Assembly: GCA_964518865.1 (NCBI GenBank)
Contig: CAZFIB010000003.1
Span: forward strand, 10,520 to 74,519
DNA from: an uncultured Thermodesulfobacteriota bacterium
Lineage (GTDB): Bacteria; Desulfobacterota; WTBG01; CAIYCZ01; CAIRTM01
Reading direction: 5' to 3'
Length of the DNA: 64,000 nucleotides
Within the stretch, counting starts at the first letter, position 1. Each line of letters starts with the position of its first letter. The notes beneath the pieces are model-generated. The model did no database searches. It was not told the origin of the DNA and worked only from the letters and a program-made list of their open reading frames with translations. The translations under genes were made by a program, and so were the position numbers. Shown piece by piece: positions 9,346 through 25,553 of this stretch.

Positions 9346-9348
9346 CTG

Positions 9349-10780: not shown

Positions 10781-12748
10781 TTACGTTGAAGCCTGTCGTG
10801 CTTCCGTCACTTCCCGCTTGACGCGGAAGGGTTCAAAATCCTCTCCCCCGCCGCTGTAAAACTTGCCGAAAAATTCGACAAAATGAAGGCGGATGCCGTG
10901 GGCAAAAGCCCCCATCAGGTTAAGCACAAAGCTGAACAGATGGCCGCCTGCCAGTATCAGAATCGCCACGATCCAGCCGAAATACGGGATGCCGAACACC
11001 ATCTTTGCGAGCGCGTTGATAGCCACCGCAAGACCGAAGCTCACCAGCCCCAGCGCCATAAGGCGCGCATAGGACAGCGAATCGCCCAGCAGCCCGGTCA
11101 CGCCGAACAGCGCCATGCCTTTTTCGGCATACAGCAGCAGCAGCAGTGCCGGTACCGCGAAAACGATCGCCAGGGTCGATGCCTTGAGATAAAAGCAAAT
11201 CAGGGACAGCTCAAGAAAAAATATCCAGACGTTTTTGAGCGCTTCCGGAATATCGTTCCTGCGCATGTCCTTAATGATACCGACGACGATACCGAGATTG
11301 AGGTGCAGCAGGCCGACGCCGATGGCGAACAGGAGAAAATTGGACACGTCGACCATCGGATTTATAACCACTATTTTGTTCAAAAACGTCATGCCCAGGT
11401 ACTCGGTGGCGAGGTTGCCGAACCACCCCCCCGTCAACGAGCCGAGCACGACTGTGGAGGCTCCGCCAAGGGTCAGCAGCATGCCTGCGCTGCGGTACAG
11501 CGAATAGTATTTGCCGCCGCCGCGCAGGATAAAAACCCCCAGCAGCAGACACATCAGCCCGTACATGGCATCGGTTATCATGAGCCCGAAGAAAAAGAGA
11601 AACGAGGGGAATATGAGCACGGTCGGATCGACCTCGTCATATCGGGGCGGCGCATACAGTTTGACAAGCAGTTCGAAGTGCTTGAGAATGCCCGGGTTGT
11701 CGAGTGCGACCGGCAGTTTTTCCACCGGCTCGTCGGGTTCGGTCGCCTGACCGATTGCAAGCCCGTCACATGCACCCTCAATATCCTGAATCACTTTCTG
11801 CGCATGCTTTGCTGTCACAAAGCCCTCAATGGCAACGACATGCTCTGTGCGAGCGAAGCCGGTATAGGCCTCGGCGCGTTCGCGCTCGATAAGAAGGAGC
11901 TCACGCAGGGCTTTCAGGCGATTGCGGTAGGTTGCAGCGGTTCCCGCAATGAGTTTCCGGCAATGCTGCTGTTTTTCATCGAGGGCGTCGATACGCCTGG
12001 TTATGTCCGCAATGGCGTCGGCGGGTGTCCCCGCGGTGTCGACCGGCTGAATGCGCTCGACATCCCGGCGCCGCAGACAGGCTGCTGCTTCATCCGCATC
12101 ACTGTTCAGGCAAACAAGCAGAATACAGCTTTCAGAATCCGAGACAGCGGTCTCGGCAAAAAACGAGCAGCCGTTGGTAACTTCTTCAATTTCTTCGCGC
12201 AGCGGCCCGAATTCTTTTCCGGGTGCGACCCCGAGCAGTGCGGTGACAAAAGCTCCCTGACCCAGAAGCTCGATGGACACCTGCACTGATTTGATCCGCT
12301 GCAGGGCATCGCGCTGGGCAACGAGGTCCGTTTTTTCGGCCTCGCATTTTTCAAGCAGGGCCAGCTGGTCAGACACTTCCGCCTCAACCGTGGCAACAGC
12401 CGAATCGGTTTCCTTAAACAGGTCCTCTCCCGCAATATCCTCTATTGCTATTTTTTCGGGAGGCGCCGGCGCAAACAGTGTTTTAAAAAAGCCCTCCTCC
12501 TGCTCGGGCGCGACCATGGTAAAAATATCCAGAAGCCGGTTGACGGCCATTATCTGTGTCATTACCCGCCGAACATCGACGGACATGGGGTGTGAGCTCA
12601 GCAGATCGCTCCACTCCTGCGTTGCAAGACGACTGCGAAAGTCGGTAATCTGTACGGCGCCCAGCTCGTGCAGACGCTTGACCGCCTGCTGCTTGACTGA
12701 TTCATGAACGGCAAAGCGGACCCTCTGCATTCTTTCAGGGTAAAACAT
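10781..12748 (-). CDS. atpI: V/A-type ATP synthase subunit I (a subunit)
   Basis: 655 aa with an N-terminal soluble coiled-coil domain and a C-terminal polytopic membrane domain. The start (MFYPERMQRV) is typical. Confidence 0.9.
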   Translation of the reverse strand: MFYPERMQRVRFAVHESVKQQAVKRLHELGAVQITDFRSRLATQEWSDLLSSHPMSVDVRRVMTQIMAVNRLLDIFTMVAPEQEEGFFKTLFAPAPPEKIAIEDIAGEDLFKETDSAVATVEAEVSDQLALLEKCEAEKTDLVAQRDALQRIKSVQVSIELLGQGAFVTALLGVAPGKEFGPLREEIEEVTNGCSFFAETAVSDSESCILLVCLNSDADEAAACLRRRDVERIQPVDTAGTPADAIADITRRIDALDEKQQHCRKLIAGTAATYRNRLKALRELLLIERERAEAYTGFARTEHVVAIEGFVTAKHAQKVIQDIEGACDGLAIGQATEPDEPVEKLPVALDNPGILKHFELLVKLYAPPRYDEVDPTVLIFPSFLFFFGLMITDAMYGLMCLLLGVFILRGGGKYYSLYRSAGMLLTLGGASTVVLGSLTGGWFGNLATEYLGMTFLNKIVVINPMVDVSNFLLFAIGVGLLHLNLGIVVGIIKDMRRNDIPEALKNVWIFFLELSLICFYLKASTLAIVFAVPALLLLLYAEKGMALFGVTGLLGDSLSYARLMALGLVSFGLAVAINALAKMVFGIPYFGWIVAILILAGGHLFSFVLNLMGAFAHGIRLHFVEFFGKFYSGGGEDFEPFRVKREVTEARQAST

Positions 12749-13063
12749 TTAGCCCTCTCCTATCATCCGGCTGACTATAATCTTTGCAGCTGCCTGCACA
12801 TGGGCTTCGCCGCTTTCGGTGACGCTCCGTGCGCTTTCCCCGCCTTCCTTGACAATTGACTCAGCCTGTGCCTCAGCTTCAGCGCAGGCTTTTTGTATGA
12901 TTTCATCTGCCGTGCGTTCAGCCTCCTTTTCGGCGTCGGCAATGATCTGCTTTGCCTCGGATTCTGATTTTGCCAGCATATCGGCCGCTTTTTTCTTTGA
13001 CGCCTCTATGCGTTCCTGAACTTTCTGTTCGGCTTCCTTGATTTTTTTAAGGGAATCGATCAT
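12749..13063 (-). CDS. atpH: V/A-type ATP synthase subunit H (G-like stalk subunit)
   Basis: 104 aa charged helical protein (KE-rich). It is the first gene of the operon, immediately upstream of atpI. Confidence 0.6.
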   Translation of the reverse strand: MIDSLKKIKEAEQKVQERIEASKKKAADMLAKSESEAKQIIADAEKEAERTADEIIQKACAEAEAQAESIVKEGGESARSVTESGEAHVQAAAKIIVSRMIGEG

Positions 13064-13311: not shown

Positions 13312-16300
13312 ATGAGGTGCACTGATTCTATGATAACACAAACTGCAGGACACAGTTCTAAAGTCATAGGCAGACTTGCAATCATGCTCCTGCTGCTATG
13401 CCCGTCCGCGCACGGAGCAACGCTTGGCGTTCAAAAGGAGGGCGGCGCCTGCGACCCGAGCGGAACACCCTATTATTGCACAATCCAAAGCGCTCTTGCG
13501 GCTGCAAGCAACGGAGACACTGTATGCGTGTATGCAGCGACATCCACCGGCGCCTATGTCGAGGCGTTGACACTGACCAGGCAGGTTTCACTTGTCGGCA
13601 AAAAAAGTGACGGCAGCGATGCCTGGTCGGCGGGCCTTGCAGGCTCACTCAGCGGAGCACCGATCCTGACCATCACCGACACCTCTTCGTTTGCTTCTCA
13701 GCCGGTGGTGACGATAGGCGGGGCATCCGGAATCTCGATGCAGGGCCTTACCATTGACTCGCGCGGCTATCCCCTGACCTGCACCGCCATTACTTCGACC
13801 AGCTACGTATCGGTTACCTACTGCGATTTTCTAATGGGAGGAGATGCCGGAACCGACTGCGCGATCGGCGTGTATGACAATAACATTCCTGACAATATTA
13901 CCGTCACCTTTTGCAGGTTTGTCGGTCAGACAACCGGCACGGCCAACTGGTTTGCGGTTATGGGCGGTGCGGGGATAAGCTCCGTAACGCTTTCCTGCAA
14001 TCAGATAACGCGCACAAGCTCACTGCTCAGCCTTGGCAGTGCCGGCGACGTGCGTAATGTTCTCTACAACCGCAACACGTTTTACGGTACCGCGGGAGCC
14101 ATATTACTCAGTGATCCGCTCGGTGTGTCGGCAAAGGACTTTGCAAACATCCGTATCATTGACAACGAATTCGATGCAACCAATGAATATGCGGTTGTTG
14201 TAAGCAGTAACGTTGGCACAGATGATGCGGAAAACGGCGACTGGCGCTCGAACCTGGTTGTCAACAACAATGCCATCAAGACTTTGACGTCCTCAAGCTA
14301 CCCTGTCGTCGGTTTCGTCAGTTCCACGTTCAATATCACCCCGACCTATTATATGGACGCACAGCTGAACTGGTGGGGCGATCTGGACGGACCGGCGGAT
14401 GTTTCGTCCCGCGTGGATTACAGCCCCTGGATTGCCCAGGCGCAGGAGTACCGCACCGGCGGGGACCCGGCCTACTGGGGCACAAACGACAGCATTACCG
14501 ACGCCCTGGCGCAGGCCGGTGCAAACGACACGGTGTATGTGGTTGCCAAAGGCAGCCCCTTTGCCGAGTCGGTAACCGTGACGACCAGCCTGACCCTTAC
14601 GGGCAGAACAAGCGCGGGTGCGGACGCCTGGACCACCGGCACGGCCGGCGCCGCATCGGGAGCGCCGATTCTCGCTATTACGAATACGTCATTTTCAAAT
14701 CCCTTGATGCTTATTCGATCAACCGCAAACAATACGACTCTCAAAGGGTTTAAAATTAATACGGGTGGTGCTGTGGCACAGCAAATATCATGTACAACTT
14801 TTGGAGGCGCTGTAAGCAATGTTGATATTTCATATTGTGACTATGCGCTTGATGAAGGAGATAAAGCTATCGCTGTTGATTACGGAAACAGCATCAGCAA
14901 CCTTACTGCTACGTACAATACCTTCACCGGCCAAAATGACAATATTAGTAATTGGTTTTTTGTTGGCGAAAATGGGAGCGGAGGTGCAGTAAACAATGCA
15001 ATCCTTTCAAACAATTCAATAACAAATGCGATGTCAACGCTGCAGCTGAACAACTCAATTAAAAAAATACGTTATTCCAATAATACATTTAACAACAGCT
15101 GGGACGGGGGCGCAATTGCAACAAAAGCCGGGTATCTTCTTATTGAAGAACCTAACGATGACAATCCGAACATTATTCAAGGTATTACGATAACGCACAA
15201 CACCTTTAATAACGGTAATCCGGACACCGAGCCGAATGAATTCGGCGTTTTGATAGCAAATACCGTCGATCTTAATGAAACCGACTGGGAATCAAATCTT
15301 GCGATTCATTTCAATAATTTCCTTCAGGATGATGATAACGGAGGTTTCCCAATCGCAGGTTTTCAAACGGGTTCCCCGGATCATGCTAGCGAGATAACCG
15401 CGACAAAAAACTATTGGTCAGCGGCACCTAATGTGAGCAGCAACGGTATGGTTTCCGACAATGTGAAATATAACCCCTGGGTCAGAAGCGGAATCGATGG
15501 CGGATCCTATGCGGTACTCGGCGCCAACACAGTCGACTATATAACCGACACCACGAACGGCATTTACCTGACCGTCGAAACCGGTGCCGGTGGCGCGACC
15601 CTGCTGCCCACAAAATACGTCGGCAATCCCACCTCCACCTCACTGACAAGCGCGCAGGGGTATTTCGATCTCGGAATCAAGTCCGGCACAATCGATAAAA
15701 TAACCGCGACATTCACCTACTCCGGCAGCGACCCGAGCATCTCGAACCCGGCTGTCTGGTATAACGGCAGCACATGGGTTTCCTGCTCCAACCAGTCCCT
15801 CGATGCCTCGGCAAATGCGGTTACCGTTTACATCACCGACACAAGTCAGATTACGCCGACCATGAGCGATGTCGGAACCATTCACAATATAACACCCTCG
15901 ACCTTTTTCGCTCTCGCATTCTCGACAACCACAACGACAGCGCCCTCCACAAGCACATCATCGGCTGCGGCCACAACGACAAGCGTAACCGCCACATCCA
16001 CAACCACCTCAACCGGCGGCGGGGGAGGCAGCACGACAACGTCGACGAGCACCGTCCCGTCGACAACCACATCCGCGCTGCCTGATACCGCGAGCACGAC
16101 CACGATCGGGGTACCGCAGCTGAGCATAACGCCCGCTTCGCTCGAATTCGCCGACAATGAAAGCGCAAAGCAGCTCAGCATTGCCAATACCGGCACCGGA
16201 ACGCTCGACTGGTCGATCGACGACAATGCAACCTCGTATGCTGAGACAAGCGGATGGGTCTTCTCCGCGCGTCCCTCGACAGGACAGGTCATGGATACCC

Positions 16301-17064
16301 CTGATTCCGTCACCCTGACGGTCAGCCGCACGCTTCTGTCGCCGGGCACCTACAGTGCCGAAATCCCGGTCATGTCGAATGCCGGCGATGCCGACATCGA
16401 CGTGGAGATGGAAGTCGCCCGAAGCGAGCTTCCGATCATGTCCGTGCGGCCGCGCCTGCTTCTTTTCCTGCTGGACGATATCGACAACCAGACCATGACC
16501 GTGCGAAACCTTTTTTCAGGAACGCTTCTCTGGGAACTTGAGGACCCGATATATCACCGCGGTGAGGGGTGGCTCTCCTTCACGCCCTCATCGGGCTCTG
16601 TCCGGCGCGAAGCCGACACCGTTACCGTGAGCGTAACGCGGGATGCCATGTCGCCCGGACTGTACAGCGCAACCGTTCCCGTGCGCTCCAACTTCAACCG
16701 CCGGAACATCACGGTCGTCATGCTTGTGCAGGAAGGGCCCGACCTGCAGATCTCGCCGTCGCTTCTGTTTTTCGGCCGCAATGACGAAAATGAAAAAGAG
16801 GTGCTCCTCACGAATACCGGTTCGGGAATTGCGAACTGGACGATTGATTCGGATGCCATCGACTACCGGGGTGGCGACACGCCATGGGTGGTATCGGTAA
16901 GCCCTCTGTCGGGCTCCACCGAAACGCTTGAGGAGGACACCGTTACCGTTACCGTCAGCAGGGACTCTCTCGGTTTCGGCCTGTACCGTGCGATCATTCC
17001 GATAACATCGGCAAACGGCGGCGACAAAAAAATCAACGTGTATTTACTGGTACCGTTTTTGTAA
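13312..17064 (+). CDS. giant secreted surface protein
   Basis: Signal peptide, then two parallel beta-helix modules each ending in an NWWG..DGP motif, then a Thr/Ser-rich linker, then 3x DUF1573/BACON-like Ig domains. Confidence 0.8.
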   Translation: MRCTDSMITQTAGHSSKVIGRLAIMLLLLCPSAHGATLGVQKEGGACDPSGTPYYCTIQSALAAASNGDTVCVYAATSTGAYVEALTLTRQVSLVGKKSDGSDAWSAGLAGSLSGAPILTITDTSSFASQPVVTIGGASGISMQGLTIDSRGYPLTCTAITSTSYVSVTYCDFLMGGDAGTDCAIGVYDNNIPDNITVTFCRFVGQTTGTANWFAVMGGAGISSVTLSCNQITRTSSLLSLGSAGDVRNVLYNRNTFYGTAGAILLSDPLGVSAKDFANIRIIDNEFDATNEYAVVVSSNVGTDDAENGDWRSNLVVNNNAIKTLTSSSYPVVGFVSSTFNITPTYYMDAQLNWWGDLDGPADVSSRVDYSPWIAQAQEYRTGGDPAYWGTNDSITDALAQAGANDTVYVVAKGSPFAESVTVTTSLTLTGRTSAGADAWTTGTAGAASGAPILAITNTSFSNPLMLIRSTANNTTLKGFKINTGGAVAQQISCTTFGGAVSNVDISYCDYALDEGDKAIAVDYGNSISNLTATYNTFTGQNDNISNWFFVGENGSGGAVNNAILSNNSITNAMSTLQLNNSIKKIRYSNNTFNNSWDGGAIATKAGYLLIEEPNDDNPNIIQGITITHNTFNNGNPDTEPNEFGVLIANTVDLNETDWESNLAIHFNNFLQDDDNGGFPIAGFQTGSPDHASEITATKNYWSAAPNVSSNGMVSDNVKYNPWVRSGIDGGSYAVLGANTVDYITDTTNGIYLTVETGAGGATLLPTKYVGNPTSTSLTSAQGYFDLGIKSGTIDKITATFTYSGSDPSISNPAVWYNGSTWVSCSNQSLDASANAVTVYITDTSQITPTMSDVGTIHNITPSTFFALAFSTTTTTAPSTSTSSAAATTTSVTATSTTTSTGGGGGSTTTSTSTVPSTTTSALPDTASTTTIGVPQLSITPASLEFADNESAKQLSIANTGTGTLDWSIDDNATSYAETSGWVFSARPSTGQVMDTPDSVTLTVSRTLLSPGTYSAEIPVMSNAGDADIDVEMEVARSELPIMSVRPRLLLFLLDDIDNQTMTVRNLFSGTLLWELEDPIYHRGEGWLSFTPSSGSVRREADTVTVSVTRDAMSPGLYSATVPVRSNFNRRNITVVMLVQEGPDLQISPSLLFFGRNDENEKEVLLTNTGSGIANWTIDSDAIDYRGGDTPWVVSVSPLSGSTETLEEDTVTVTVSRDSLGFGLYRAIIPITSANGGDKKINVYLLVPFL

Positions 17065-17483: not shown

Positions 17484-19340
17484 TCATGACAGGTTGATCT
17501 TCACCCTTCCGCGCGACTTGATGAGCGCGATGATGTGCTGTGCTTCTTCGAAATCGGGTTTTATGTGCAGCACGCGGTCGAAAACCTCAAGAGCTTTGTC
17601 ATTCATGCCGGCATTTGCATATGCCGCTCCCAGAATAAACAGCGCATTGAGGTTGTAGGGCTGACGGGAGACGACACGCTCGAGCACCTCAATACCCCTG
17701 TCGAGCCTGCCGGTCGTGATATGGGCCCGGCCGGCAGTCGTCAGCACATCCATTCTGTTTTCGTTGTAAGATATAGCTTTCAGTGCGTTTTGCAGAGCCG
17801 GTTCATTGCGGCCCGTGCGCTCCATACGCATGGCCGAATAAAAGTATTTTTCACAGTACAGGTCCTTGACCGCGTACCGGGCGTAGAAAGCTCCGCAGAC
17901 AAGCACAACTGCTGCAAGCGCTGCGGCAGCAGGCCGTGGAAACGACCGCTGCATAGATGCTCTGCCGGGACGCTGTCGCGTATACATACCGCTCAGCATA
18001 CCCAGATACACAAACAGCAGCAGCGGCGGCATGGAACGCTGAAAGGGAAAACTGAAAAAAGCGGTAACCCCGAGGGATACGATGCCGCACAGCAGACCTG
18101 CGGCGATTGCCTGTTCGGACCGGCTGCTGCCGGCCCTGATAATTTTCACGGCCGGATAAAAAGCCGACATAAACAGGAAAACAAACAGCAGCATACCCGG
18201 AAGGCCGAGCTCGACTGTCATCTGGACGTAATCATTGTGCGCCCGGCGTATCTGCTTTGTTTTATCGAATGCCCTGTCGAATTCACGGCTGTAAGTATAG
18301 CGTGGATACTGCAGCTTGAACGAGCCGGGACCGAACCCCGTGACAGGCCGGTCCAGTACCATATCAAAGCTGTTTTTCCAGATGGTGACCCGATAGACTG
18401 CGCTGGGGCCGAACATTTTTCCTATCTTATCTGGACGGCCTGCAGCTAAAAAATAGAAGCCCGCACACAGGATACATGCCAGCAAAGCAGTATAACCCGC
18501 ATAAACACGCCAATGCTGCCTGCGCACAACGGCGAGCAACATCACGGCGCTGCCCGCAGCAACGAGTACGGCAAGCCATGCAGCCCTGCAGTGCGTATAA
18601 TAAAGAAATACCAGTGAACACAGGACCAGCGCCACGGCTGACATGCGACGGATGGTTTTGTGCGTAAGAAAAGCGGCCGCTGTTAAGACGGGAAGTGTTA
18701 TGGCAAGATACTGCGCAGCCATATTGGGGTTTGCAAAAACAGCCGCCGGGGACTCCCGCAGCGGCACAACCTGCAAACCGAACAGCTGCTGGCACAGTCC
18801 AAGCAGCACGACCCCTGCCCCGGCAAGTATGATAACCGCACAAAATCGTCTGAGCCATCCGGCCTGTTCGGCACACATAACGGTAAAAAAATAAGCAAGT
18901 CCGCATGCCGACCAGTGCAGTGCAGCGTACAGGCCCTCGTAGTGATTATTCGACCACAGCAGCTGCACAAGGGACCACACTATAAAAAGAGCCGCCAAGA
19001 TATCGACCAGATTGGAGCTTATGATGACCCTCCCGGCAATACAGCGGCGCACAGCCCATACAAGAGCCATAAAAAACATACACAGCTGTATGAAATAGCG
19101 CTGCGGCATATCCGCAAAATTGCTCAACCCCTTAATAAACACAAACGGAGCAAAGAGCAGCACACCGCACATAAGTATGCCCGAAACTCCCAGCAGTCGG
19201 GAATCCCACATCTGCGCGGCAAGTCCCAGAGTTTGATACACTTCGGAAACCGCAACATCAAGCTCAGCTGCGATCTGCTCCGGGGACCGGCCGGGATAAC
19301 TTTTTTTTATCTGTTTTATCTGCTTACTGGAGAGCTGCAT
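17484..19340 (-). CDS. O-antigen ligase family (Wzy_C) polytopic membrane protein with C-terminal TPR repeats
   Basis: 'RRAHNDYVQMTVELGLPG' is the Wzy_C signature. It has ~10-12 TM helices and C-terminal TPRs. Its start lies 3 nt after the stop of the upstream PQQ gene. Confidence 0.75.
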   Translation of the reverse strand: MQLSSKQIKQIKKSYPGRSPEQIAAELDVAVSEVYQTLGLAAQMWDSRLLGVSGILMCGVLLFAPFVFIKGLSNFADMPQRYFIQLCMFFMALVWAVRRCIAGRVIISSNLVDILAALFIVWSLVQLLWSNNHYEGLYAALHWSACGLAYFFTVMCAEQAGWLRRFCAVIILAGAGVVLLGLCQQLFGLQVVPLRESPAAVFANPNMAAQYLAITLPVLTAAAFLTHKTIRRMSAVALVLCSLVFLYYTHCRAAWLAVLVAAGSAVMLLAVVRRQHWRVYAGYTALLACILCAGFYFLAAGRPDKIGKMFGPSAVYRVTIWKNSFDMVLDRPVTGFGPGSFKLQYPRYTYSREFDRAFDKTKQIRRAHNDYVQMTVELGLPGMLLFVFLFMSAFYPAVKIIRAGSSRSEQAIAAGLLCGIVSLGVTAFFSFPFQRSMPPLLLFVYLGMLSGMYTRQRPGRASMQRSFPRPAAAALAAVVLVCGAFYARYAVKDLYCEKYFYSAMRMERTGRNEPALQNALKAISYNENRMDVLTTAGRAHITTGRLDRGIEVLERVVSRQPYNLNALFILGAAYANAGMNDKALEVFDRVLHIKPDFEEAQHIIALIKSRGRVKINLS

Positions 19341-19343: not shown

Positions 19344-20375
19344 TCAGTTCAAACGAACACCCCTGACATAGTATTTTGCAGCGACTATTGCTTTTTCGCG
19401 TTGTATAATAATAAATCTACCCGGCGGCAGCATCGTCGTCTCCTGCTCCTTACCTGAGTCGGCATTAATTTTATAAAGACGGCCGCTGATATCTTTTACA
19501 AAAACACTTCCGGCATGCACTACCGGAGGCACAAGCCATGCCGGTCTGGCAGTTGCAAATGTCCAGAGTACGGTCCCGTATTCTGCATCATAACAATGCA
19601 GTTCACCCGCCGCCACATACAGCCTGTTCCCATAAAAAAGCGGTTTTGCAAATACAGGCCACTGAAGCTTTTTTTCCCATACAATATGACCGGTTTTTAC
19701 ATTGATTCCGAGCAAATATTTTTCCATTGTGGCAACGAATGCCGTTTGGTTTGTTGCGACAAGTACTGTAAGTCGCACGTCGTTTTCAATTCTCCAAAGC
19801 TGCTTGCCGTTAGATCCGTCATAACAGCTTAAAGCGCCCTGAGCAGCCACAAGAACGTCTGTGCCGGCCGCTGCCAGCAATATGCGTCCGCTGTCTGTCC
19901 TGACCGTCCAATGCCGGTGTCCGGTGTCGGAACTAAGACAATAGAGTTTCGATTGTATTACAATATACACAAATTCGTCCATCACTACCGGCTGTGATAC
20001 ACTCCAGTCATCGCCCCAGAAATCCCATTGCAGTTCTCCGGTGAGAGCGTCAAGGCAATACAGGCCGCCGCTCTGGAAGTAGACCCGCCCATTGTGCACA
20101 ACCGGCTTTGAAGGAGACAGCCCAAAAGGCTTAAAGGTCCAGAGCAGGCTGCCGTCCGCCGCATTAAAACAATAAATCCGGTCACTGCTGACATAAACGT
20201 TCGAATTGTTGTCTGTCGCAAGCAGCACCTGAGGAAAGCCGGTACGAAACTTCCATGCATAGTTGACTGTATCTTCGAGACAACCCGCGGAAACGATGAT
20301 AAAAACAATCAAGCAGACTGCTTTAAGCATTTTAGATTGAAATAGACAAAACGTTTGCACAATATTCTTTTTCAC
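19344..20375 (-). CDS. PQQ-repeat beta-propeller lipoprotein (BamB-like)
   Basis: Repeated 'G.LY..D...G...W' propeller blades and a lipobox (…VSAGC). The true start may be the internal ATG at ~20330 (MLKAVCLIVF...). Confidence 0.75.
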   Translation of the reverse strand: MKKNIVQTFCLFQSKMLKAVCLIVFIIVSAGCLEDTVNYAWKFRTGFPQVLLATDNNSNVYVSSDRIYCFNAADGSLLWTFKPFGLSPSKPVVHNGRVYFQSGGLYCLDALTGELQWDFWGDDWSVSQPVVMDEFVYIVIQSKLYCLSSDTGHRHWTVRTDSGRILLAAAGTDVLVAAQGALSCYDGSNGKQLWRIENDVRLTVLVATNQTAFVATMEKYLLGINVKTGHIVWEKKLQWPVFAKPLFYGNRLYVAAGELHCYDAEYGTVLWTFATARPAWLVPPVVHAGSVFVKDISGRLYKINADSGKEQETTMLPPGRFIIIQREKAIVAAKYYVRGVRLN

Positions 20376-20442: not shown

Positions 20443-20483
20443 TCAAAAACAAACAAAAAGCCCGGCTGCAGTACAGCCGGGCT
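20443..20483 (-). terminator. Rho-independent terminator downstream of giant surface protein 2
   Basis: On the minus strand: AGCCCGGCTG-tactg-CAGCCGGGCT (10-bp GC stem, 5-nt loop) followed by TTTTTGTTTGTTTTT. Confidence 0.7.
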
Positions 20484-20531: not shown

Positions 20532-23500
20532 TTATCTGAAAAACAGCGGGACAAATATGATGACTGTTATTTCCTCATCACCGCCGTTCGACGTGACCGG
20601 CACAACCGCGCGGTGAAAGCCCGGCCGCAGGCTGCTTCGGTCGACACTGATCGTAATGGTTTCTTCACTCTCTTCACCGCTGACGGTACCGCTGTCTGAA
20701 TTGAAGCTTATCCAGTCGCTGCCGCGCCAGCCGTACTGAATGTCGCCGATACTCCACTCCAGAATACCGGTTCCCGCATTCTGAACTGCACACTGCGTTT
20801 CCGACACATTGCGGCGCATAAAGCAGAACGTCCGGCCGAGAGAAAGACGTGGCTCGCCCGTCGGAGGAGGTGCAGGTTCTTCCTCCTGGACGGTCAGAGT
20901 AACAGTTATATCCTTGCTGTCGGAGCCGTCTCGAAGTGCAAGTGTTATAATGGCATTGTATGTGCCCTGGTCCAAACCCTGACGGTCGACCGACACGGTC
21001 ATATCCATGCTGTCGCCCGGAGCAAGAGAGATGATGTTGGCATCCGTGCTGAGCCAGCCGCTGACGTCCGCGTACAGCGTTTCAACATACCAGGTCCCGT
21101 CCGCATCGCCCCGGTTCGTAACCGTAACCGTGGATTGCTCCTGCATCTCGAATGACGTGAATTCAAGGCTGCCTGAGCTGATCTCTACAGCCGGAGCAAG
21201 CGGAACATAGACATCACCCACACCAAGGCGCACGAGAACCGAGTCGGAGCCGCCGCTGGATGTTATGGGGAGATAGGCCTCGTAAATTCCCTCGCTCAAA
21301 CCGTCCCGGTTTACGTAGATGGTGACAATCTGCGTACCGGTACCGCTCGGGGGCTGAATCGACTCGATCCACCCGCTGCCGTCGAGGTACTGGGGGGTCC
21401 CGATGCTCCAGGTGAGGGTGCCGCCGCCGCTGTTGCCGATGGCGATAAAGCGGTCGTCGACGTCTTCAGGGAATCCGATATAGCCGTCCACATCTAGTAC
21501 CGGCGTCGTTGTGGAGCCGCCGCCTCCGCCGGTAGTGCCGCCACCGGTAGTGCCGGAATCGTCGTCATCGCCCGACGATGATCCTTCCATTGCGCCGGCA
21601 CCGAAGTAGGTTCCGCCGAGCTGTTCGATGGACGGGCTGCTGCTGTCTGTAATGACAACCTGCAGACAGTTGCCGACGCTTATTGCTGCCGGGTCGGTCG
21701 GTTTCCATTCGCCGGTATCACCGTTGAACCACATGACCGTATCGCCGCCGCTGCCGCAGATTTCGATTGTTATACTTGTCAACCCGTCAGGATCGGGGAC
21801 AAAAATATCGACATACTTTGCACCGGCCTTCAGCCCGCTGGACTTCCCGGTCGGTGTGCCGCTGTAGCTTGCAGCCATTATTTTGGCCGATCCCTCTACT
21901 TCAAGATTGACACCCGGCACCACGTCCGAGGCGCTGCTGCCGTTCATTTCCATCATGACAACCGAGCCTTCAAACGGACTTTCAAGGTGAGGAGAGAAGC
22001 AAACCAGGCCGCTGACGGATGCACCGCTGCCGGCAGCGGTTTTTCCCGCCGTGCAGTTGTCGGCCGTGTCGCCCGACGGACCGTCCTCAGCACCCCACCA
22101 GTTGTTGCGGGCATCCACGTGCTCGGTTCCGCTGTGCTCCAACCCAACCGGAACTGCAGGTTTGCATATATCCTCATTCTGGTCAGGATTGTACGTAGAC
22201 GGGCAGTTGTCGTCGTCATCCGCTATGCCGTCGCAGTCGGTATCATCAAGCGTAACCGTCTCTTCCTCGGGTGTTGACGGTATTGTTACGTTGCAGTTGC
22301 TGCCGCATGCATCGCCGATTCCGTCATCATCTGAATCCCGCTGATCGGGATTATAAACGTAAGGACAATTGTCATCACATGCTTCTGTCTCACCCTCCGC
22401 ACAGGCAACATCGCCGACGATACCGTTTTGGTCGCCGTCATCCGCTATGCCGTCGCAGTCGGTATCATCAAGCGTAACCGTCTCTTCCTCGGGTGTTGAC
22501 GGTATTGTCACTGTGCAGTTCTCCTGCACACCACCCTCCCCCGGAGTAAACTTGATGTTGTTGAAACTGATCTGCGTACCGTTGACATCATCGACGACAA
22601 AAGCTTTTTGATAGGTGCCGCTATCCATATCAATGGTCAGGCCGAGGATGGTGGCATTTTCCGCACGTATAGAAATCGCGGTGCTGTTCTCTGCAGGCAC
22701 ACCGTTTATAACCGGTGCAGCACCTTCGGCTGCCTTTATCGTCAGATTGGCAACATCAATCGCAAAACCGTCATAATCGCCGGTTTGAAGCTCAATAACC
22801 TTTTCTTCTTCGGGCGGAAGGGCGGCAAAAGCCGTAATGACATCGTTGATAGTTGCATACCCTGATCCGCCGCCCCCTGGACTGAAAAGAATGCTGTTGC
22901 TGTCATCACAGGTATCGCCGCGACCATCCTGGTCCGCATCATTTTGATCTTCGTTGTCCGTGTACGGACAGTTATCGCAGGCATCACCACGAGTGTCACC
23001 GTCACTGTTTGCCTGATCGCCATTTGCAATATCCGGACAGTTGTCACACGCATCACCGATAGTGTCATTATCAAAATCCAACTGATCGGCATTCGCGGTA
23101 TTCGGGCAATTGTCGCAGGCATCACCTACATCGTCACCGTCAAAGTCGGCCTGGGATGTATTGTTATCATACTGGCAGTTGTCGCACGCATCACCGATAG
23201 TGTCATTATCGAAATCCAACTGATCGGCATTCGCGGTATTCGGGCAATTGTCTTCTCCATCCTCAATACCGTCATTATCATCATCATCGTCACAGATATC
23301 GCCGATACCGTCGCCGTCGCTGTCACCGATATCGGGTGCAAATGAAGTAAATGCGGCGTCTTTGGCATAGGGATAAAAGCTCAGATTGGCGCTGACGCCC
23401 ATGACGGCAAGTTCACCGCCGGACCCGTCAGCAGCAGGGGTGCAGCCCAGAAAAGATTCGGAATTGTTAATTCCTCCTGACGGTCCGTCATCGGCTCCCC

Positions 23501-24254
23501 ACCAGTTATACCGCATATCTATGGCAGGCGGATTGTTTGTTGACAAATACTGCCCGAAAGCATGTCCCGCGTAATCAGGATTTCCTTCCCAGGCACTGCT
23601 GTTGTCGTTACCGCTCAAATCATTATATTGTATGAACAATTTCGGGACGTTACCGTAGACCCCGATCCCGCGGTGGTTGCCGGTAATACTGTTTTTCATA
23701 GAAATGTCGCCACCAATAAATATCCAGGACGAACTGGACCCGTTAATAAAAATACCGTAACCGTAGTCCGGGTGTTTGGTAGCATTATCTGGCGCAAAGC
23801 CGGCTATGGTATTATTTCTAATTGCAATGGAAGACCCGGAGTTGATAAAAATGCCGCAATCAGAACCGGTAATGGTAAAACCTTGGAGTGTTGTTAGACT
23901 TCCGGGAGGAGTCTGAATAAATACTGATGCGTATATATCAAGTATGTCAAGTGGAGAAATACCTGACTCGGGGGAAATCTGCTCTCCTTCGATAACCGGT
24001 GCAGCCCCGTCTGCAGCCTTGATGGTCAATCCCTGTTTCCAGATGATAAAACCGTCATAACTGCCGTCAGCCACCTCGATGGTAGAACCGGGGGCCGACA
24101 GATTTATCGCACTTTGAATGTCTAAAAAGTCGGCTGCACCTGTGGCGTTATCGTCATCCACCAGCAACGTGGCGGATTGCGCATTAGCATTAGAAATACA
24201 GACTGCATATGCCAGTAGTGCTATGAATAAACCGTGCATCCATGAAACTTTCAT
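20532..24254 (-). CDS. giant secreted Ca-binding surface protein
   Basis: Signal peptide (…ISNANAQS), then beta-helix modules with NWWG..DGPS motifs, then ~10 TSP3 repeats (DxDxDGxGDxCDNCPxxxNxDQ), then a Gly/Ser/Thr linker, then 3x DUF1573/BACON-like domains. Confidence 0.85.
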   Translation of the reverse strand: MKVSWMHGLFIALLAYAVCISNANAQSATLLVDDDNATGAADFLDIQSAINLSAPGSTIEVADGSYDGFIIWKQGLTIKAADGAAPVIEGEQISPESGISPLDILDIYASVFIQTPPGSLTTLQGFTITGSDCGIFINSGSSIAIRNNTIAGFAPDNATKHPDYGYGIFINGSSSSWIFIGGDISMKNSITGNHRGIGVYGNVPKLFIQYNDLSGNDNSSAWEGNPDYAGHAFGQYLSTNNPPAIDMRYNWWGADDGPSGGINNSESFLGCTPAADGSGGELAVMGVSANLSFYPYAKDAAFTSFAPDIGDSDGDGIGDICDDDDDNDGIEDGEDNCPNTANADQLDFDNDTIGDACDNCQYDNNTSQADFDGDDVGDACDNCPNTANADQLDFDNDTIGDACDNCPDIANGDQANSDGDTRGDACDNCPYTDNEDQNDADQDGRGDTCDDSNSILFSPGGGGSGYATINDVITAFAALPPEEEKVIELQTGDYDGFAIDVANLTIKAAEGAAPVINGVPAENSTAISIRAENATILGLTIDMDSGTYQKAFVVDDVNGTQISFNNIKFTPGEGGVQENCTVTIPSTPEEETVTLDDTDCDGIADDGDQNGIVGDVACAEGETEACDDNCPYVYNPDQRDSDDDGIGDACGSNCNVTIPSTPEEETVTLDDTDCDGIADDDDNCPSTYNPDQNEDICKPAVPVGLEHSGTEHVDARNNWWGAEDGPSGDTADNCTAGKTAAGSGASVSGLVCFSPHLESPFEGSVVMMEMNGSSASDVVPGVNLEVEGSAKIMAASYSGTPTGKSSGLKAGAKYVDIFVPDPDGLTSITIEICGSGGDTVMWFNGDTGEWKPTDPAAISVGNCLQVVITDSSSPSIEQLGGTYFGAGAMEGSSSGDDDDSGTTGGGTTGGGGGSTTTPVLDVDGYIGFPEDVDDRFIAIGNSGGGTLTWSIGTPQYLDGSGWIESIQPPSGTGTQIVTIYVNRDGLSEGIYEAYLPITSSGGSDSVLVRLGVGDVYVPLAPAVEISSGSLEFTSFEMQEQSTVTVTNRGDADGTWYVETLYADVSGWLSTDANIISLAPGDSMDMTVSVDRQGLDQGTYNAIITLALRDGSDSKDITVTLTVQEEEPAPPPTGEPRLSLGRTFCFMRRNVSETQCAVQNAGTGILEWSIGDIQYGWRGSDWISFNSDSGTVSGEESEETITISVDRSSLRPGFHRAVVPVTSNGGDEEITVIIFVPLFFR
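22211..22508 (-). repeat. intragenic near-identical ~78-bp direct repeats (2 copies, ~220 bp apart)
   Basis: The same 78-nt string (…gtcatccgctatgccgtcgcagtcggtatcatcaagcgtaaccgtctcttcctcgggtgttgacggtattgt) occurs at ~22211 and ~22431. It encodes NVTIPSTPEEETVTLDDTDCDGIADD twice. Confidence 0.85.
23043..23251 (-). repeat. intragenic near-identical ~72-bp direct repeats in TSP3 region (2 copies, ~137 bp apart)
   Basis: 70/72 identical copies at ~23043 and ~23180. They encode DNCPNTANADQLDFDNDTIGDACDNC. Confidence 0.85.
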
Positions 24255-24276: not shown

Positions 24277-24603
24277 TTAGTTATCCATCATGCCGCCGTG
24301 CGGCATTATTTTATGATCGCCGAACTTTACGGCAATTCCGTCCGCATCACAGCGAACAACGGTACCTGTTACTTTTATGCAACCTTTATGCCCTGTCATG
24401 TCAAACAAAGTTGAATTATCGAGAATAATTTCCACCCGTACCTTCGTCCCCACATCGAACGGCCGGCTGGTGGTCAGAAATGCACCCCCGGCACTGATAT
24501 CACGGGTGGCGAGCTGCATACTGTCAAAGCCGTTGAGCATGGTCGCCGGAAAATTAACATCGAACCGTTGATGCTCGCGCTTGTTTTCAATGGTCTGCTG
24601 CAT
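24277..24603 (-). CDS. PilZ domain protein (c-di-GMP receptor)
   Basis: RxxxR (REHQR) and DxSxGG (DISAGGAF) motifs. It lies 22 nt upstream of giant protein 2, which has a GAGGGGGGA RBS. Confidence 0.75.
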   Translation of the reverse strand: MQQTIENKREHQRFDVNFPATMLNGFDSMQLATRDISAGGAFLTTSRPFDVGTKVRVEIILDNSTLFDMTGHKGCIKVTGTVVRCDADGIAVKFGDHKIMPHGGMMDN

Positions 24604-24881: not shown

Positions 24882-25553
24882 TCAGAGGTTTTTGGCTGCC
24901 CACAGGGTGGCCTGCAGGCGGTTGGCAACATTGATCTTTTTATAGATATTGTAAAGATGTGTTTTGATAGTATGAGGACTGACACACAGCTTGTCGGCGA
25001 TTTCCTCATTCTTGCGTCCGATCGCCACGTGCGAAAGTATTTCTATTTCACGCTGCGTCAAAATTTTTCTGACTTTTATGCCGCTTATGTCCTCGTCGCG
25101 GTCTTCGAGAATATACCTGGTCATAACATCGCGGGTGAACCAGAGTTCCTGATTATATAAAGCCGTAATGCCCTTTATAAACAGGTCGGTGTCGGTATCC
25201 TGATAAAAAATACCCCGCACGCCATGTCCCATGCAGCTTTCTTCGATACCCAGTCCCGGCTTGACATTGAACAGCGCAACCACGGAGGCATCAGTCACTT
25301 CACAGATTGATGCAAGCAGGCCGGACATGAAATCGTCCATGGTCTTACCCATACAGTCCCAGAGATAAAGTTCGCTTTCAAACTGTTTTCTTTTTTCCTG
25401 GGATAGTACACTGATATCCTTGATACAGGTACATGACGCCCCTGTTTCAGTCTCGATAAGACTTCCGAGGGCCTGACTGCTCAAAATGTGTGCGCCTACG
25501 ATAAAAATGGTGTGTCCCGCCAGAACTTTGCCTGCCTGTACGTCGTTTTTCAT
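24882..25553 (-). CDS. CsgD-family transcriptional regulator (LuxR-type HTH)
   Basis: Alignable along its whole length with E. coli CsgD. This covers both the N-terminal receiver-like domain and the C-terminal LuxR HTH (LTQREIEILSHVAIGRKNEEIADKL…TIKTHLYNIYKKI). Confidence 0.8.
   Translation of the reverse strand: MKNDVQAGKVLAGHTIFIVGAHILSSQALGSLIETETGASCTCIKDISVLSQEKRKQFESELYLWDCMGKTMDDFMSGLLASICEVTDASVVALFNVKPGLGIEESCMGHGVRGIFYQDTDTDLFIKGITALYNQELWFTRDVMTRYILEDRDEDISGIKVRKILTQREIEILSHVAIGRKNEEIADKLCVSPHTIKTHLYNIYKKINVANRLQATLWAAKNL

What the first reader, a model, noticed from the sequence alone, without database searches (positions are those of the whole stretch)
15925..16105. Ser/Thr-rich low-complexity linkers in both giant proteins as candidate O-glycosylation/mucin-like spacers
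Gene 1 encodes ~60 aa that are almost pure T/S/A/G (TTTTTAPSTSTSSAAATTTSVTATSTTTSTGGGGGSTTTSTSTVPSTTTSALPDTASTTT). Gene 2 has an analogous GSSSGDDDDSGTTGGGTTGGGGGSTTTP stretch at ~21520-21610. Both lie exactly between the beta-helix/TSP3 region and the Ig-domain stalk. Such linkers are the typical acceptor regions for general O-OTases and for mucin-like extension.
Basis: inference. Interest (0 to 1): 0.5.

Follow-up and report, generated by a model that had tools for sequence, protein, structure and literature searches.

The report
Conserved Thr/Ser-rich spacer in surface proteins
Two giant secreted proteins of an uncultured sulfate-reducer-type bacterium carry a real, family-conserved disordered Thr/Ser-rich spacer, and a neighbouring O-antigen-ligase-like enzyme makes sugar attachment plausible but unproven.

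Summary
Gene 1 (13312-17064, +) encodes 60 residues at 15925-16104 that are 68% Ser+Thr, against 22% in the rest of the protein and about 10 SD above shuffles. Gene 2 (20532-24254, -) has a shorter Gly/Ser/Thr/Asp stretch at 21501-21584.

Both stretches precede a homologous C-terminal module of three BACON_2 Ig-like domains that ends in a hydrophobic VPF-type terminus. All 14 gene-1-type relatives found carry a 52-80 aa linker that is 53-71% Ser+Thr at the same position. Its sequence is unconserved, it is not a DNA repeat, and AlphaFold2 predicts it disordered.

Gene-1-type genes sit next to a Wzy_C+TPR enzyme and a BamB-like lipoprotein in 6 of 8 informative genomes. A seventh has two PMT-family glycosyltransferase genes there instead. 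The enzyme is WaaL-like, keeps the catalytic Arg/His, and its extra TPR domain is predicted to be periplasmic.

It lacks the PglL_A signature, and characterised PglL enzymes prefer Ser, whereas this linker is Thr-dominated. Gene-2-type linkers can be Asp/Gly-rich and often lack the enzyme nearby.

Verdict: a genuine conserved spacer. O-glycosylation is a reasonable untested hypothesis for gene 1 and weaker for gene 2.

The parts
13312..17064 (+). Gene 1: a 1250-aa secreted modular protein. Order of parts: signal peptide, two beta-helix-like head modules, a beta-rich domain, the Thr/Ser linker, three BACON_2 domains, and a VPFL C-terminus.
   Evidence: ORF and translation. Relatives at 33-49% identity over the full length. 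Identical gene on a Logan contig.
13312..13416 (+). Predicted Sec signal peptide of gene 1 (MRCTDSMITQTAGHSSKVIGRLAIMLLLLCPSAHG / AT).
   Evidence: Read directly from the translation: basic n-region, hydrophobic core, A-H-G cleavage motif. Ala36 is invariant in the family. This is an inference; no predictor was run.
13417..15501 (+). Two copies of a head module of about 390 and 310 aa, all-beta and beta-helix-like. Relatives carry 1, 2 or 3 copies.
   Evidence: Family alignment A2 shows the variable copy number. Beta_helix matches below threshold at 21.8 bits. The AlphaFold2 model shows short-strand all-beta structure with pLDDT 70-88.
15502..15924 (+). Pre-linker beta-rich domain of about 140 aa with no Pfam match. 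It ends in the conserved FFAL motif.
15925..16104 (+). The finding: a 60-aa Thr/Ser-rich linker (T28 S13 A7 G5 P3), predicted disordered.
   Evidence: composition and shuffle test; no tandem repeat; pLDDT 25-38; conserved in every family member.
16105..17061 (+). C-terminal stalk of three BACON_2 Ig-like domains. It ends in the conserved hydrophobic terminus ...LLVPFL (17050-17061).
   Evidence: Pfam BACON_2 at 74 bits with 3 stretches. Three beta-sandwiches in the AlphaFold2 model. Foldseek hits to strings of ASH/HYDIN-type and cadherin-type Ig domains. Alignment A4.
17484..19340 (-). Wzy_C+TPR membrane enzyme of 618 aa, convergent with gene 1. The Wzy_C domain is at about 18180-18629 and the TPR domain at about 17487-17867. 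This is the candidate O-oligosaccharyltransferase.
   Evidence: Pfam Wzy_C at 90.8 bits plus TPRs. AlphaFold2 model with pLDDT 83. Best PDB fold match is WaaL 7TPG. R317 aligns with R265 of the 7TPG WaaL chain, and the AHND motif holding H368 is identical in the two. R317 and H368 are invariant among 17 relatives. A topology of 13 TM helices with a periplasmic TPR is inferred.
19344..20330 (-). BamB-like (PQQ_2) beta-propeller with a lipoprotein signal (..IVSAG/C). Its stop is 3 nt upstream of the Wzy_C+TPR start, so the two are probably co-transcribed.
   Evidence: Pfam PQQ_2 at E 4e-44. Translation. The pair is conserved in L004, L007, L008, L019, L087, L091 and L092.
20459..20483 (-). Terminator-like hairpin (11-bp stem with 8 GC pairs, then a T-run) between the gene 2 stop and the propeller gene. 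It suggests that gene 2 is a separate transcription unit.
   Evidence: This is a consensus scan only.
20532..24254 (-). Gene 2: a 1240-aa secreted protein. Order of parts: signal peptide, beta-helix, TSP_3 repeats, a second beta-helix-like region, a beta-rich domain, the Gly/Ser/Thr/Asp linker, three BACON_2 domains, and a VPLFFR C-terminus.
   Evidence: Relatives with the same architecture are P0050 and P0064.
21501..21584 (-). Gene 2 linker GSSSGDDDDSGTTGGGTTGGGGGSTTTP: 28 aa, G11 T7 S5 D4.
20535..21500 (-). Gene 2 C-terminal module of three BACON_2 domains, homologous to that of gene 1 at 32% identity.
   Evidence: Alignment A4. Pfam BACON_2.
24277..24603 (-). PilZ-domain protein immediately upstream of gene 2. 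Its position is conserved in gene-2-type loci.
   Evidence: Pfam PilZ at E 2.5e-14. Same order in L088 and L089.
24882..25553 (-). CsgD/LuxR-type (GerE) regulator. It belongs to the conserved PfkB-GerE-PilZ-gene-2 block.

Best explanation
The segment is a genuine, intrinsically disordered Thr/Ser-rich spacer. It is selected for composition and length, not sequence. It is a defining part of a small family of Sec-exported, adhesin-like envelope proteins of uncultured Thermodesulfobacteriota.

The spacer separates a variable head from a conserved C-terminal module. The head is one to three beta-helix-like modules, with or without TSP3 repeats, followed by a beta-rich domain. The C-terminal module is three BACON_2 Ig-like domains with a hydrophobic VPF-type terminus.

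The most likely mechanism is inferred, not shown. After export, the unfolded linker of the gene-1-type protein is O-glycosylated in the periplasm. The enzyme would be the neighbouring Wzy_C+TPR protein, which has a WaaL-like GT-C fold, a conserved catalytic Arg/His pair and a periplasmic TPR domain. It would transfer a glycan from an undecaprenyl-pyrophosphate carrier, possibly with help from its co-transcribed BamB-like lipoprotein. The result would be a stiff, protease-resistant, mucin-like stalk.

For gene 2 the same fate is possible but much less supported. Its linker may be mainly a plain Gly/Asp/Ser/Thr flexible hinge.
For: **Shown**
- The composition is far from chance. It is not a DNA repeat.
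- AlphaFold2 gives pLDDT 25-38 over the linker, flanked by folded domains.
- Both proteins have Sec signal peptides.
- All 14 gene-1-type relatives carry a 52-80 aa linker that is 53-71% Ser+Thr. It ends 306-326 aa before the C-terminus and its sequence is unconserved.
- Among the 146 best representatives with this Ig repeat, exactly the 7 family members long enough to include the position have an S/T-rich stretch of at least 18 of 30. None of the generic repeat proteins does.
- Synteny. The convergent Wzy_C+TPR gene and the propeller gene adjoin the gene-1-type gene in six places: the window, L004/L006, L007, L087, L091 and L092. These fall in two different flanking contexts, V-ATPase or ETF genes.
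- In L002 two PMT/PMT_2 GT-C genes sit directly upstream instead.
- In 1.12 Mb around 79 Wzy_C relatives, only 4 ORFs have such S/T runs. Two of these are the orthologous neighbours.
- Enzyme. Wzy_C scores 90.8 bits. The best fold match is WaaL 7TPG. R317 aligns with R265 of that chain, and the AHND motif holding H368 is identical. Both residues are invariant in 17 relatives.

**Inferred**
- The enzyme has 13 TM helices, an N-terminus inside, a periplasmic catalytic loop and a periplasmic TPR domain. This matches the 13-TM-plus-periplasmic-C-terminal-domain layout described for PglS (PMC12800693).

**Literature**
- O-OTases with a dedicated substrate are usually encoded next to it (PMC12645811; PMC3643930 reports 21 of 31).
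- The O-OTases WsfB and PglL carry a C-terminal TPR motif (PMC2943079).
Against: - No experiment exists, and no glycan-assembly or flippase genes lie beside the locus.
- The Wzy_C domain is shared with O-antigen ligases and cannot assign O-OTase function (PMC12645811).
- PglL_A is absent in all 17 family members. Wzy_C_2 is below threshold.
- Characterised PglL enzymes are Ser-specific in Ala/Pro-rich regions (PMC12645811, PMC8423747). This linker is Thr-dominated, with 28 Thr against 13 Ser.
- The Wzy_C+TPR and propeller pair also occurs without any S/T-rich giant within 10 kb, in L014 and L019.
- One gene-1-type locus (L086) and two gene-2-type loci (L088, L089) have no GT-C gene nearby.
- Gene-2-type linkers can be Asp/Gly-rich with few hydroxyl residues, as in L092.
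- The six syntenic genomes are related, so they are not six independent events.
- S/T-rich linkers also occur unglycosylated.
Confidence: 0.45

Rival explanations
1. The linker is a plain, unmodified flexible spacer. It only provides reach and flexibility between head and stalk. The neighbouring Wzy_C+TPR protein is an ordinary O-antigen or polysaccharide ligase or polymerase. Its adjacency reflects a shared envelope or biofilm neighbourhood, not an enzyme-substrate relation.
For: - Wzy_C is shared with WaaL, and the closest solved structure is WaaL.
- PglL_A is absent.
- The enzyme-propeller pair occurs without the giant proteins in L014 and L019.
- More distant relatives lie beside multi-gene clusters of unrelated content, for example L013.
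- Gene-2-type linkers drift to Asp/Gly-rich composition, which suggests that disorder rather than hydroxyl groups is what is selected there.
- L086, L088 and L089 lack any nearby GT-C gene.
Against: - Gene-1-type linkers hold 53-71% Ser+Thr in all 14 members, although many other compositions would give disorder.
- Synteny with the enzyme persists in two different flanking contexts, at only 40-48% protein identity.
- A different GT-C family occupies the adjacent position in L002.
- The enzyme has an extra TM helix and a periplasmic TPR domain, which the 403-413-residue WaaL chain of 7TPG lacks.
- No LPS-core genes are adjacent.
Confidence: 0.3
2. The linker is O-glycosylated, but by a different enzyme. 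The candidate would be a PMT/GT39-83-type, lipid-phosphate-sugar-dependent GT-C that adds single sugars processively. That chemistry is known for Thr-rich regions of actinobacterial and eukaryotic secreted proteins. On this reading the Wzy_C+TPR protein has another role.
For: - In L002 the gene-1-type gene is directly preceded by two PMT/PMT_2 genes and has no Wzy_C gene in view.
- The window encodes a PMT_2 protein at 45620-47257.
- Thr-dominated acceptors fit PMT-type O-mannosylation better than PglL-type transfer. This rests on my own knowledge of Mycobacterium and Streptomyces Pmt. The Ser preference of PglL is from PMC12645811.
Against: - The window's PMT_2 gene lies 28 kb away and is not related to the L002 enzymes beyond family level.
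- The PMT and PMT_2 families also include lipid-A-modifying ArnT-type enzymes (own knowledge).
- NCBIfam places the L002 proteins only weakly, near a Leptospira putative glycosyltransferase family.
- Only 1 of 8 contexts shows PMT adjacency.
Confidence: 0.12
3. The Wzy_C+TPR enzyme and the BamB-like lipoprotein do not act on the linker. They act on the conserved C-terminal module and its VPF-type terminus. They might couple the protein covalently to a glycolipid or polysaccharide for surface anchoring, in loose analogy to A-LPS attachment of type IX secretion cargo.
For: - Every family member ends in a conserved hydrophobic terminus: VPFL, VPFF, VTPF or VPLFFR.
- No recognised sorting signal was found.
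- There are weak NCBIfam echoes of PorZ for the propeller (E 1.4e-3) and PorW for the TPR (E 9e-4).
Against: - Those hits are far below cut-off and are generic propeller and TPR similarity.
- Gene-2-type proteins keep the terminus in loci without the enzyme.
- No sortase-like or peptidase partner is present.
- This reading is purely speculative.
Confidence: 0.06
4. The stretch is an artefact: a chance low-complexity run or a mis-called ORF.
For: Low-complexity DNA produces overlapping spurious ORFs at 15774-16085, 15851-16168 and 15882-16349.
Against: - The 1250-aa frame is continuous, with homology on both sides of the linker in at least 14 relatives.
- The composition is about 10 SD from shuffles.
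- An identical gene was assembled independently in a Logan contig.
Confidence: 0.01

Closest known systems
O-oligosaccharyltransferases encoded next to their dedicated substrate (TfpO/PilO-pilin, TfpM-pilin, PglS-ComP) and general PglL systems
   Same: - The enzyme is a Wzy_C-domain membrane protein with the conserved Arg/His catalytic pair.
- Its predicted layout is 13 TM helices plus a periplasmic C-terminal domain.
- The acceptor is an exported protein with a disordered low-complexity region.
- Enzyme and candidate substrate are neighbours (PMC12645811, PMC3643930, PMC12800693).
   Different: - No pilin-like substrate is present.
- PglL_A is absent and Wzy_C_2 is below threshold.
- The acceptor would be a 60-aa Thr-dominated mucin-like tract. 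Known acceptors are a single Ser in an Ala/Pro-rich loop or a C-terminal residue.
- A co-transcribed BamB-like lipoprotein partner has no counterpart in those systems.
- Nothing has been tested experimentally.
S-layer glycoprotein O-OTases of Firmicutes (WsaB of Geobacillus stearothermophilus, with the TPR protein WsaA; WsfB of Paenibacillus alvei, Wzy_C plus TPR)
   Same: - A Wzy_C enzyme is combined with a TPR motif, either fused or encoded alongside.
- The large surface protein is the substrate.
- Thr, Ser or Tyr O-linkage is used (PMC2943079).
   Different: - Those enzymes sit inside full S-layer glycan biosynthesis clusters. No such genes adjoin this locus.
- Those substrates are glycosylated at a few discrete sites, not in a low-complexity tract.
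- This organism is a Gram-negative-type Thermodesulfobacteriota.
WaaL O-antigen ligase (Cupriavidus metallidurans, PDB 7TPG/7TPJ)
   Same: It is the best sequence match to the membrane domain and the best structural match overall (E 2e-10 by profile; Foldseek E 1e-5, TM 0.57). R317 aligns with its R265, and the AHND motif is identical.
   Different: - The 7TPG chain is 403-413 residues and has no C-terminal TPR domain.
- The window protein is 618 aa, with an additional TM helix and a periplasmic TPR domain.
- It is not in an LPS-core cluster.
Thr/Ser/Pro-rich O-glycosylated linkers of secreted bacterial and archaeal proteins: PT linkers of Cellulomonas cellulases, Pmt-mannosylated Thr-rich regions of mycobacterial lipoproteins, and the Thr-rich O-glycosylated stalk of halobacterial S-layer glycoproteins (own knowledge)
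   Same: The tract is disordered and hydroxyl-rich, variable in sequence and conserved in position. It lies between a functional head and a cell-proximal module. One relative (L002) is flanked by PMT-family genes.
   Different: The lineage differs, the proposed enzyme family differs in most loci, and no glycan evidence exists.
BACON-domain spacers of Bacteroidota surface glycoside hydrolases, and BACON_2 of crAss-like phages (own knowledge)
   Same: BACON-type Ig-like domains are used as a stalk or spacer in surface proteins (Pfam BACON_2).
   Different: - Here three BACON_2 domains form a fixed C-terminal module with a conserved hydrophobic terminus.
- They are preceded by a long S/T tract.
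- Generic BACON_2 repeat proteins lack such tracts.

Membership tests
Wzy_C / WaaL-like GT-C superfamily (the neighbouring enzyme, 17484-19340) | Pfam Wzy_C (PF04932) above the gathering score | tested here: met
   The score is 90.8 bits against a cut-off of 31.7. All 17 relatives scanned match.
Wzy_C / WaaL-like GT-C superfamily (the neighbouring enzyme, 17484-19340) | Conserved periplasmic-loop Arg and catalytic His (E. coli WaaL R288/H338; PglL R298/H349 per PMC3643930) | tested here: met
   R317 aligns with R265 of the 7TPG WaaL chain, and the AHND motif holding H368 is identical in the two. R317 and H368 are invariant in 17 relatives. I did not map these onto E. coli numbering.
Wzy_C / WaaL-like GT-C superfamily (the neighbouring enzyme, 17484-19340) | WaaL-like multi-pass fold with the catalytic loop on the periplasmic side | tested here: met
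   The AlphaFold2 model has pLDDT 83. The top PDB fold match is WaaL 7TPG. The side of the loop is inferred from hydropathy and the positive-inside rule.
PglL/PglS-class O-oligosaccharyltransferases | PglL_A domain (PF15864 / IPR031726) flanking Wzy_C | tested here: not met
   None of the 17 family members matches, even at E <= 1.
PglL/PglS-class O-oligosaccharyltransferases | Wzy_C_2 domain (PF11846) C-terminal to Wzy_C | tested here: inconclusive
   The score is 25.6 bits against a cut-off of 28.5, over residues 431-601, which overlap the TPR domain. Only 3 of 17 members match.
PglL/PglS-class O-oligosaccharyltransferases | Transfers Und-PP-linked glycan to Ser/Thr of periplasmic proteins | not testable with these tools
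   This needs heterologous glycosylation assays or glycoproteomics.
[quoted passage not shown] | Adjacent type IV pilin-like substrate gene | tested here: not met
   The neighbours are the giant BACON_2 proteins, the propeller and the V-ATPase genes. There is no pilin gene.
WaaL O-antigen ligase proper | About 400-420 aa, no periplasmic C-terminal domain, encoded in an LPS-core (waa) cluster | tested here: not met
   The protein is 618 aa, with a thirteenth TM helix and a TPR domain. No LPS-core genes were found among the window ORFs scanned.
Mucin-like / O-glycosylated Ser-Thr linker (the finding itself) | Long tract with at least 50% Ser+Thr, low complexity, predicted disordered | tested here: met
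   The gene 1 linker is 60 aa and 68% Ser+Thr, with pLDDT 25-38. Gene 2's tract is only 43% Ser+Thr over 28 aa.
Mucin-like / O-glycosylated Ser-Thr linker (the finding itself) | Protein reaches the compartment where glycosylation occurs (export signal) | tested here: met
   Sec-type signal peptides are readable in both translations. No dedicated predictor was run.
Mucin-like / O-glycosylated Ser-Thr linker (the finding itself) | Glycans actually attached to the tract | not testable with these tools
   This requires mass spectrometry or a mobility-shift assay.
PMT (GT39/83) protein O-glycosylation | PMT-family GT-C enzyme genetically linked to the substrate | tested here: not met
   In the window the only PMT_2 gene (45620-47257) is 28 kb away and unrelated to the L002 pair. 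The feature is met only in relative L002.
BACON_2 Ig-like domain (stalk after the linker) | Pfam PF19190 above the gathering score | tested here: met
   Gene 1's C-terminus scores 74.4 bits with 3 stretches. Gene 2 scores 39.3 bits.

The most novel reading that the evidence does not exclude
The Wzy_C+TPR enzyme, together with its co-transcribed BamB-like lipoprotein, is an undescribed class of bacterial O-oligosaccharyltransferase. It would be dedicated to neighbouring giant surface proteins. It would use its periplasmic TPR domain to engage a roughly 60-residue Thr-rich tract and would glycosylate that tract densely. That would amount to a bacterial mucin-domain glycosylation system with Thr preference, unlike the Ser-specific PglL enzymes.
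Probability: 0.3. Interest if true: 0.65.

Novelty: new member of a known kind. Interest (0 to 1): 0.38.

Why it matters
Ser/Thr-rich interdomain linkers are common, so the feature itself is ordinary. Three things here are slightly more than ordinary.

1. The tract is a strictly conserved architectural element of a very small, undescribed family. I found about 14 members among 1.8 billion cluster representatives and related loci.
2. It is repeatedly syntenic with an uncharacterised Wzy_C+TPR enzyme and a BamB-like lipoprotein.
3. Its Thr bias does not fit the known Ser-specific PglL enzymes.

If the enzyme does glycosylate the tract, it would widen the acceptor range of bacterial O-OTases, which would interest bioconjugate engineers. 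It would also give a first handle on the envelope glycoproteins of uncultured Thermodesulfobacteriota. If it does not, the locus is simply a pair of biofilm or adhesin genes with flexible hinges.

Tried and rejected
- **Full-length gene 1 against Pfam and NCBIfam.** There were no hits. Only scanning sub-regions exposed BACON_2 and a sub-threshold Beta_helix match.
- **Profile search of the enzyme against PDB sequences.** TPR hits swamped it. WaaL 7TPG was the only membrane-domain hit.
- **Foldseek of the gene 1 model.** Strings of Ig domains dominated, so the beta-helix head could not be confirmed by fold. The model itself is only moderate (pLDDT 62, 4-sequence alignment).
- **Homologue search with gene 2.** TSP_3 repeat proteins swamped it: 6937 hits. 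Only P0050 and P0064 shared the architecture.
- **Tandem-repeat or slippage origin of the linker.** Rejected: Tandem Repeats Finder found nothing in the linker and codon use is mixed.
- **Window PMT_2 gene as an orthologue of the L002 PMT pair.** Rejected: there is no significant similarity.
- **S/T-rich ORFs near distant Wzy_C relatives (L067, L057).** These are unrelated proteins and give no independent support.
- **Cluster look-up for names or organism.** None is recorded. The taxonomy comes only from the record titles of related MAGs, which read Thermodesulfobacteriota.
- **Bacteroidota D-(S/T)-(A/I/L/V/M/T) sequon.** One DTA occurs in the linker. I judged it uninformative in this lineage.


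Full report
**Observation**

The window carries two large convergent/divergent ORFs. Gene 1 is at 13312-17064 (+) and encodes 1250 aa. Gene 2 is at 20532-24254 (-) and encodes 1240 aa.

Translating gene 1 gives exactly the quoted peptide at residues 872-931, which is nt 15925-16104. Its composition is T28 S13 A7 G5 P3, so 68% Ser+Thr against 22% for the rest of the protein. The richest 60-aa window holds 41 Ser/Thr. In 2000 shuffles of the protein the figure is 23.2 +/- 1.7, with a maximum of 30.

Gene 2 contains GSSSGDDDDSGTTGGGTTGGGGGSTTTP at residues 891-918, which is nt 21501-21584. The stretch is Gly-dominated and only 43% Ser+Thr.

Tandem Repeats Finder reports nothing in either linker, and codon use is mixed. 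So the bias is at the amino-acid level and not a product of replication slippage. Short overlapping ORFs at the linker are compositional by-products.

**Architecture**

Both proteins begin with readable Sec signal peptides.

- Gene 2 matches TSP_3 and BACON_2 as a whole protein. Its N-terminus scanned alone matches Beta_helix at 29.1 bits, above the cut-off.
- Full-length gene 1 matches nothing in Pfam or NCBIfam.
- Scanned alone, the part of gene 1 after the linker matches BACON_2 at 74 bits in three stretches. Its head matches Beta_helix only below threshold, at 21.8 bits.

An AlphaFold2 model of gene 1 residues 51-1250 is moderate overall (4-sequence alignment, mean pLDDT 62). It shows all-beta, short-strand head modules, three beta-sandwich domains after the linker, and pLDDT of 25-38 across protein residues 842-933, which contain the linker. 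Foldseek matches are strings of Ig-type domains.

The C-terminal three-domain modules of genes 1 and 2 are homologous at 32% identity. Both end in a hydrophobic terminus, LLVPFL in gene 1 and IFVPLFFR in gene 2.

One qualification applies: a beta-rich domain of about 140 aa with no Pfam match lies between the head and the linker.

**Conservation**

Gene 1 has very few relatives among 5.8 billion clustered proteins. More came from a metagenome scan, from a locus found through the enzyme (L007), and from a profile search of 1.84 billion representatives with the C-terminal module.

- All 14 gene-1-type members have a 52-80 aa tract that is 53-71% Ser+Thr. It ends 306-326 aa before the C-terminus. 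It lies right after a conserved FFAL-type motif and right before the first BACON_2 domain. Its sequence is not alignable.
- Among the 146 best representatives of this Ig repeat, exactly 7 carry a stretch with at least 18 of 30 Ser/Thr. Those 7 are precisely the family members with the C-terminal module and VPF-type terminus.
- Generic multi-repeat BACON_2 proteins have none.
- Head-module copy number varies from 1 to 3.
- Gene-2-type relatives (P0050, P0064, a 730-aa paralogue in L088 and a partial gene in L092) keep a linker at the same place. It is 28-57 aa and Gly-rich. In L092 it is mostly Asp/Gly with few hydroxyl residues.

The Thr/Ser tract is therefore a defining, selected feature of the gene-1 type. 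For the gene-2 type, what is conserved looks more like generic disorder.

**Neighbourhood**

Three features lie between the two giants.

1. A 618-aa Wzy_C+TPR protein at 17484-19340 (-).
2. Three nucleotides upstream of it, a PQQ_2/BamB-like beta-propeller with a lipoprotein signal, at 19344-20330 (-).
3. A strong terminator-like hairpin at 20459-20483, which separates gene 2 from this pair.

Upstream of gene 2 lie a PilZ protein and a CsgD-like GerE regulator. The block PfkB-GerE-PilZ-gene 2 recurs in L088 and L089. This suggests regulation by c-di-GMP and biofilm signals.

Of the eight gene-1-type loci with informative flanks:

- Six have the convergent Wzy_C+TPR gene and the propeller gene next door. 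They are the window, L004/L006, L007, L087, L091 and L092. They fall in two different wider contexts, V-ATPase or ETF genes, at 40-48% protein identity.
- One (L002) has two PMT/PMT_2 GT-C genes directly upstream.
- One (L086) has neither.

The reverse view is less tidy. The enzyme-propeller pair occurs without an S/T-rich giant within 10 kb in L014 and L019. L088 and L089 have no GT-C gene nearby. In 1.12 Mb around 79 Wzy_C relatives, only four ORFs carry such S/T runs. Two are the orthologous neighbours and the other two are unrelated proteins.

**The enzyme**

- Pfam Wzy_C scores 90.8 bits.
- The only solved relative of the membrane domain is WaaL 7TPG, at profile E 2e-10. It is also the top fold match for a pLDDT-83 AlphaFold2 model.
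- R317 aligns with R265 of that chain, and the AHND motif holding H368 is identical in the two. Both residues are invariant among 17 relatives.
- From the model's helices, hydropathy and the positive-inside rule I infer 13 TM helices, a cytoplasmic N-terminus, a periplasmic catalytic loop (about 300-382) and a periplasmic TPR domain (492-618). This is the layout described for PglS, with 13 TM helices and a periplasmic C-terminal domain (PMC12800693). It differs from the 403-413-residue WaaL chain of 7TPG.
- Reviews note that WsfB and PglL carry a C-terminal TPR motif (PMC2943079).
- PglL_A is absent from all 17 members and Wzy_C_2 is below threshold. By signature the enzyme is not a PglL/PglS member.
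- Wzy_C alone cannot tell ligases from O-OTases (PMC12645811).

**Fit to known specificity**

PglL enzymes of Burkholderia, Neisseria and Acinetobacter glycosylate Ser almost exclusively, in disordered Ala/Pro-rich regions (PMC12645811, PMC8423747). The gene 1 tract has twice as many Thr as Ser. So 'typical acceptor for general O-OTases' overstates the match.

O-OTases with dedicated substrates are usually encoded next to them (PMC12645811; 21 of 31 in PMC3643930). That is the pattern seen here.

**Conclusion**

- The linker is real, disordered and family-defining. I hold this with high confidence.
- The most likely mechanism is periplasmic O-glycosylation of the gene-1-type tract by the neighbouring Wzy_C+TPR enzyme, giving a mucin-like stalk. 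This is an inference from synteny, enzyme features and composition. I put it at about 0.45.
- Main rivals: an unmodified hinge beside an ordinary ligase or polymerase (0.3); glycosylation by a PMT-type enzyme (0.12); an enzyme acting on the C-terminal module instead (0.06).
- For gene 2 the glycosylation reading is weaker.

The feature belongs to a known kind, namely Ser/Thr-rich linkers and O-OTase-substrate neighbours. Its interest is moderate and lies in the candidate Thr-directed Wzy_C+TPR enzyme, which is directly testable.

Noticed in passing
window 17050-17061 and 20535-20552; also the C-termini of P0002-P0004, P0050, P0064, P0183-P0254, and the L007, L085 and L087 proteins: Every protein with the three-BACON_2 C-terminal module ends within a few residues of a hydrophobic motif: (L/V)(V/T/M)P(F/L)(F/L/M), or xP(F/L)F(R)(R/W). 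No known sorting signal was detected. This may be an unrecognised C-terminal sorting or anchoring signal, or it may just be the last beta-strand.
   Followed up: partly
window 24277-26822; L088 5999-12654; L089 3281-10519: The block PfkB kinase, CsgD-like GerE regulator, PilZ protein and gene-2-type giant is conserved in unrelated contigs. This hints that the TSP3/BACON_2 protein is a c-di-GMP- or biofilm-regulated matrix adhesin.
   Followed up: partly
L002 6536-9782 (GCA_964621615.1): Two tandem PMT/PMT_2 GT-C genes directly precede the gene-1-type homologue P0002. A giant protein of at least 2188 aa with NosD, Beta_helix, CARDB, TSP_3 and Laminin_G_3 matches lies upstream. No Wzy_C gene is in view.
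   Followed up: partly
window 45620-48593: A PMT_2-family membrane protein (545 aa, - strand) lies next to a DUF4114-containing protein (318 aa, + strand) in a lower-GC stretch (about 44-50% GC between 44 and 56 kb). It is not related to the L002 PMT genes beyond family level.
   Followed up: partly
window 23013-23252: A DNA-level tandem array of period 69 with 3.5 copies at 65% match lies inside gene 2. It corresponds to the TSP_3 repeats.
   Followed up: no
window 4669-13063; L004 550-9565; L091 1-7558; L092 1-7718: A complete V/A-type ATPase operon lies immediately upstream of gene 1. The same arrangement appears in four related genomes, so the adhesin/Wzy_C locus has a stable position beside it.
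   Followed up: partly
window 41637-43148 (-): A 503-aa ORF between the Nuo-type operon and a GGDEF response regulator has no Pfam or NCBIfam match.
   Followed up: no
L091 11115-12995: In one related genome a 626-aa membrane protein is inserted between the gene-1-type gene and the Wzy_C+TPR gene. Its C-terminus resembles isoprenylcysteine or phospholipid methyltransferases (RHPAYSAKLL motif). I judged this by eye only.
   Followed up: no
window 26819-29356: A sulfotransferase-family gene and a phosphoglucomutase/phosphomannomutase gene lie a few kb from the locus. They are the only nearby genes that could bear on sugar metabolism. No glycosyltransferase or flippase genes were found beside the giants.
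   Followed up: no
gene-1-type linkers in L007, P0004, P0183 and P0204: Several linkers share a loose recurring element, TTT(T)S(V/I)(K/R)PTTT. It might be a quasi-sequon or simply compositional. The window linker has only TTTSV and STVPSTTTS variants.
   Followed up: no
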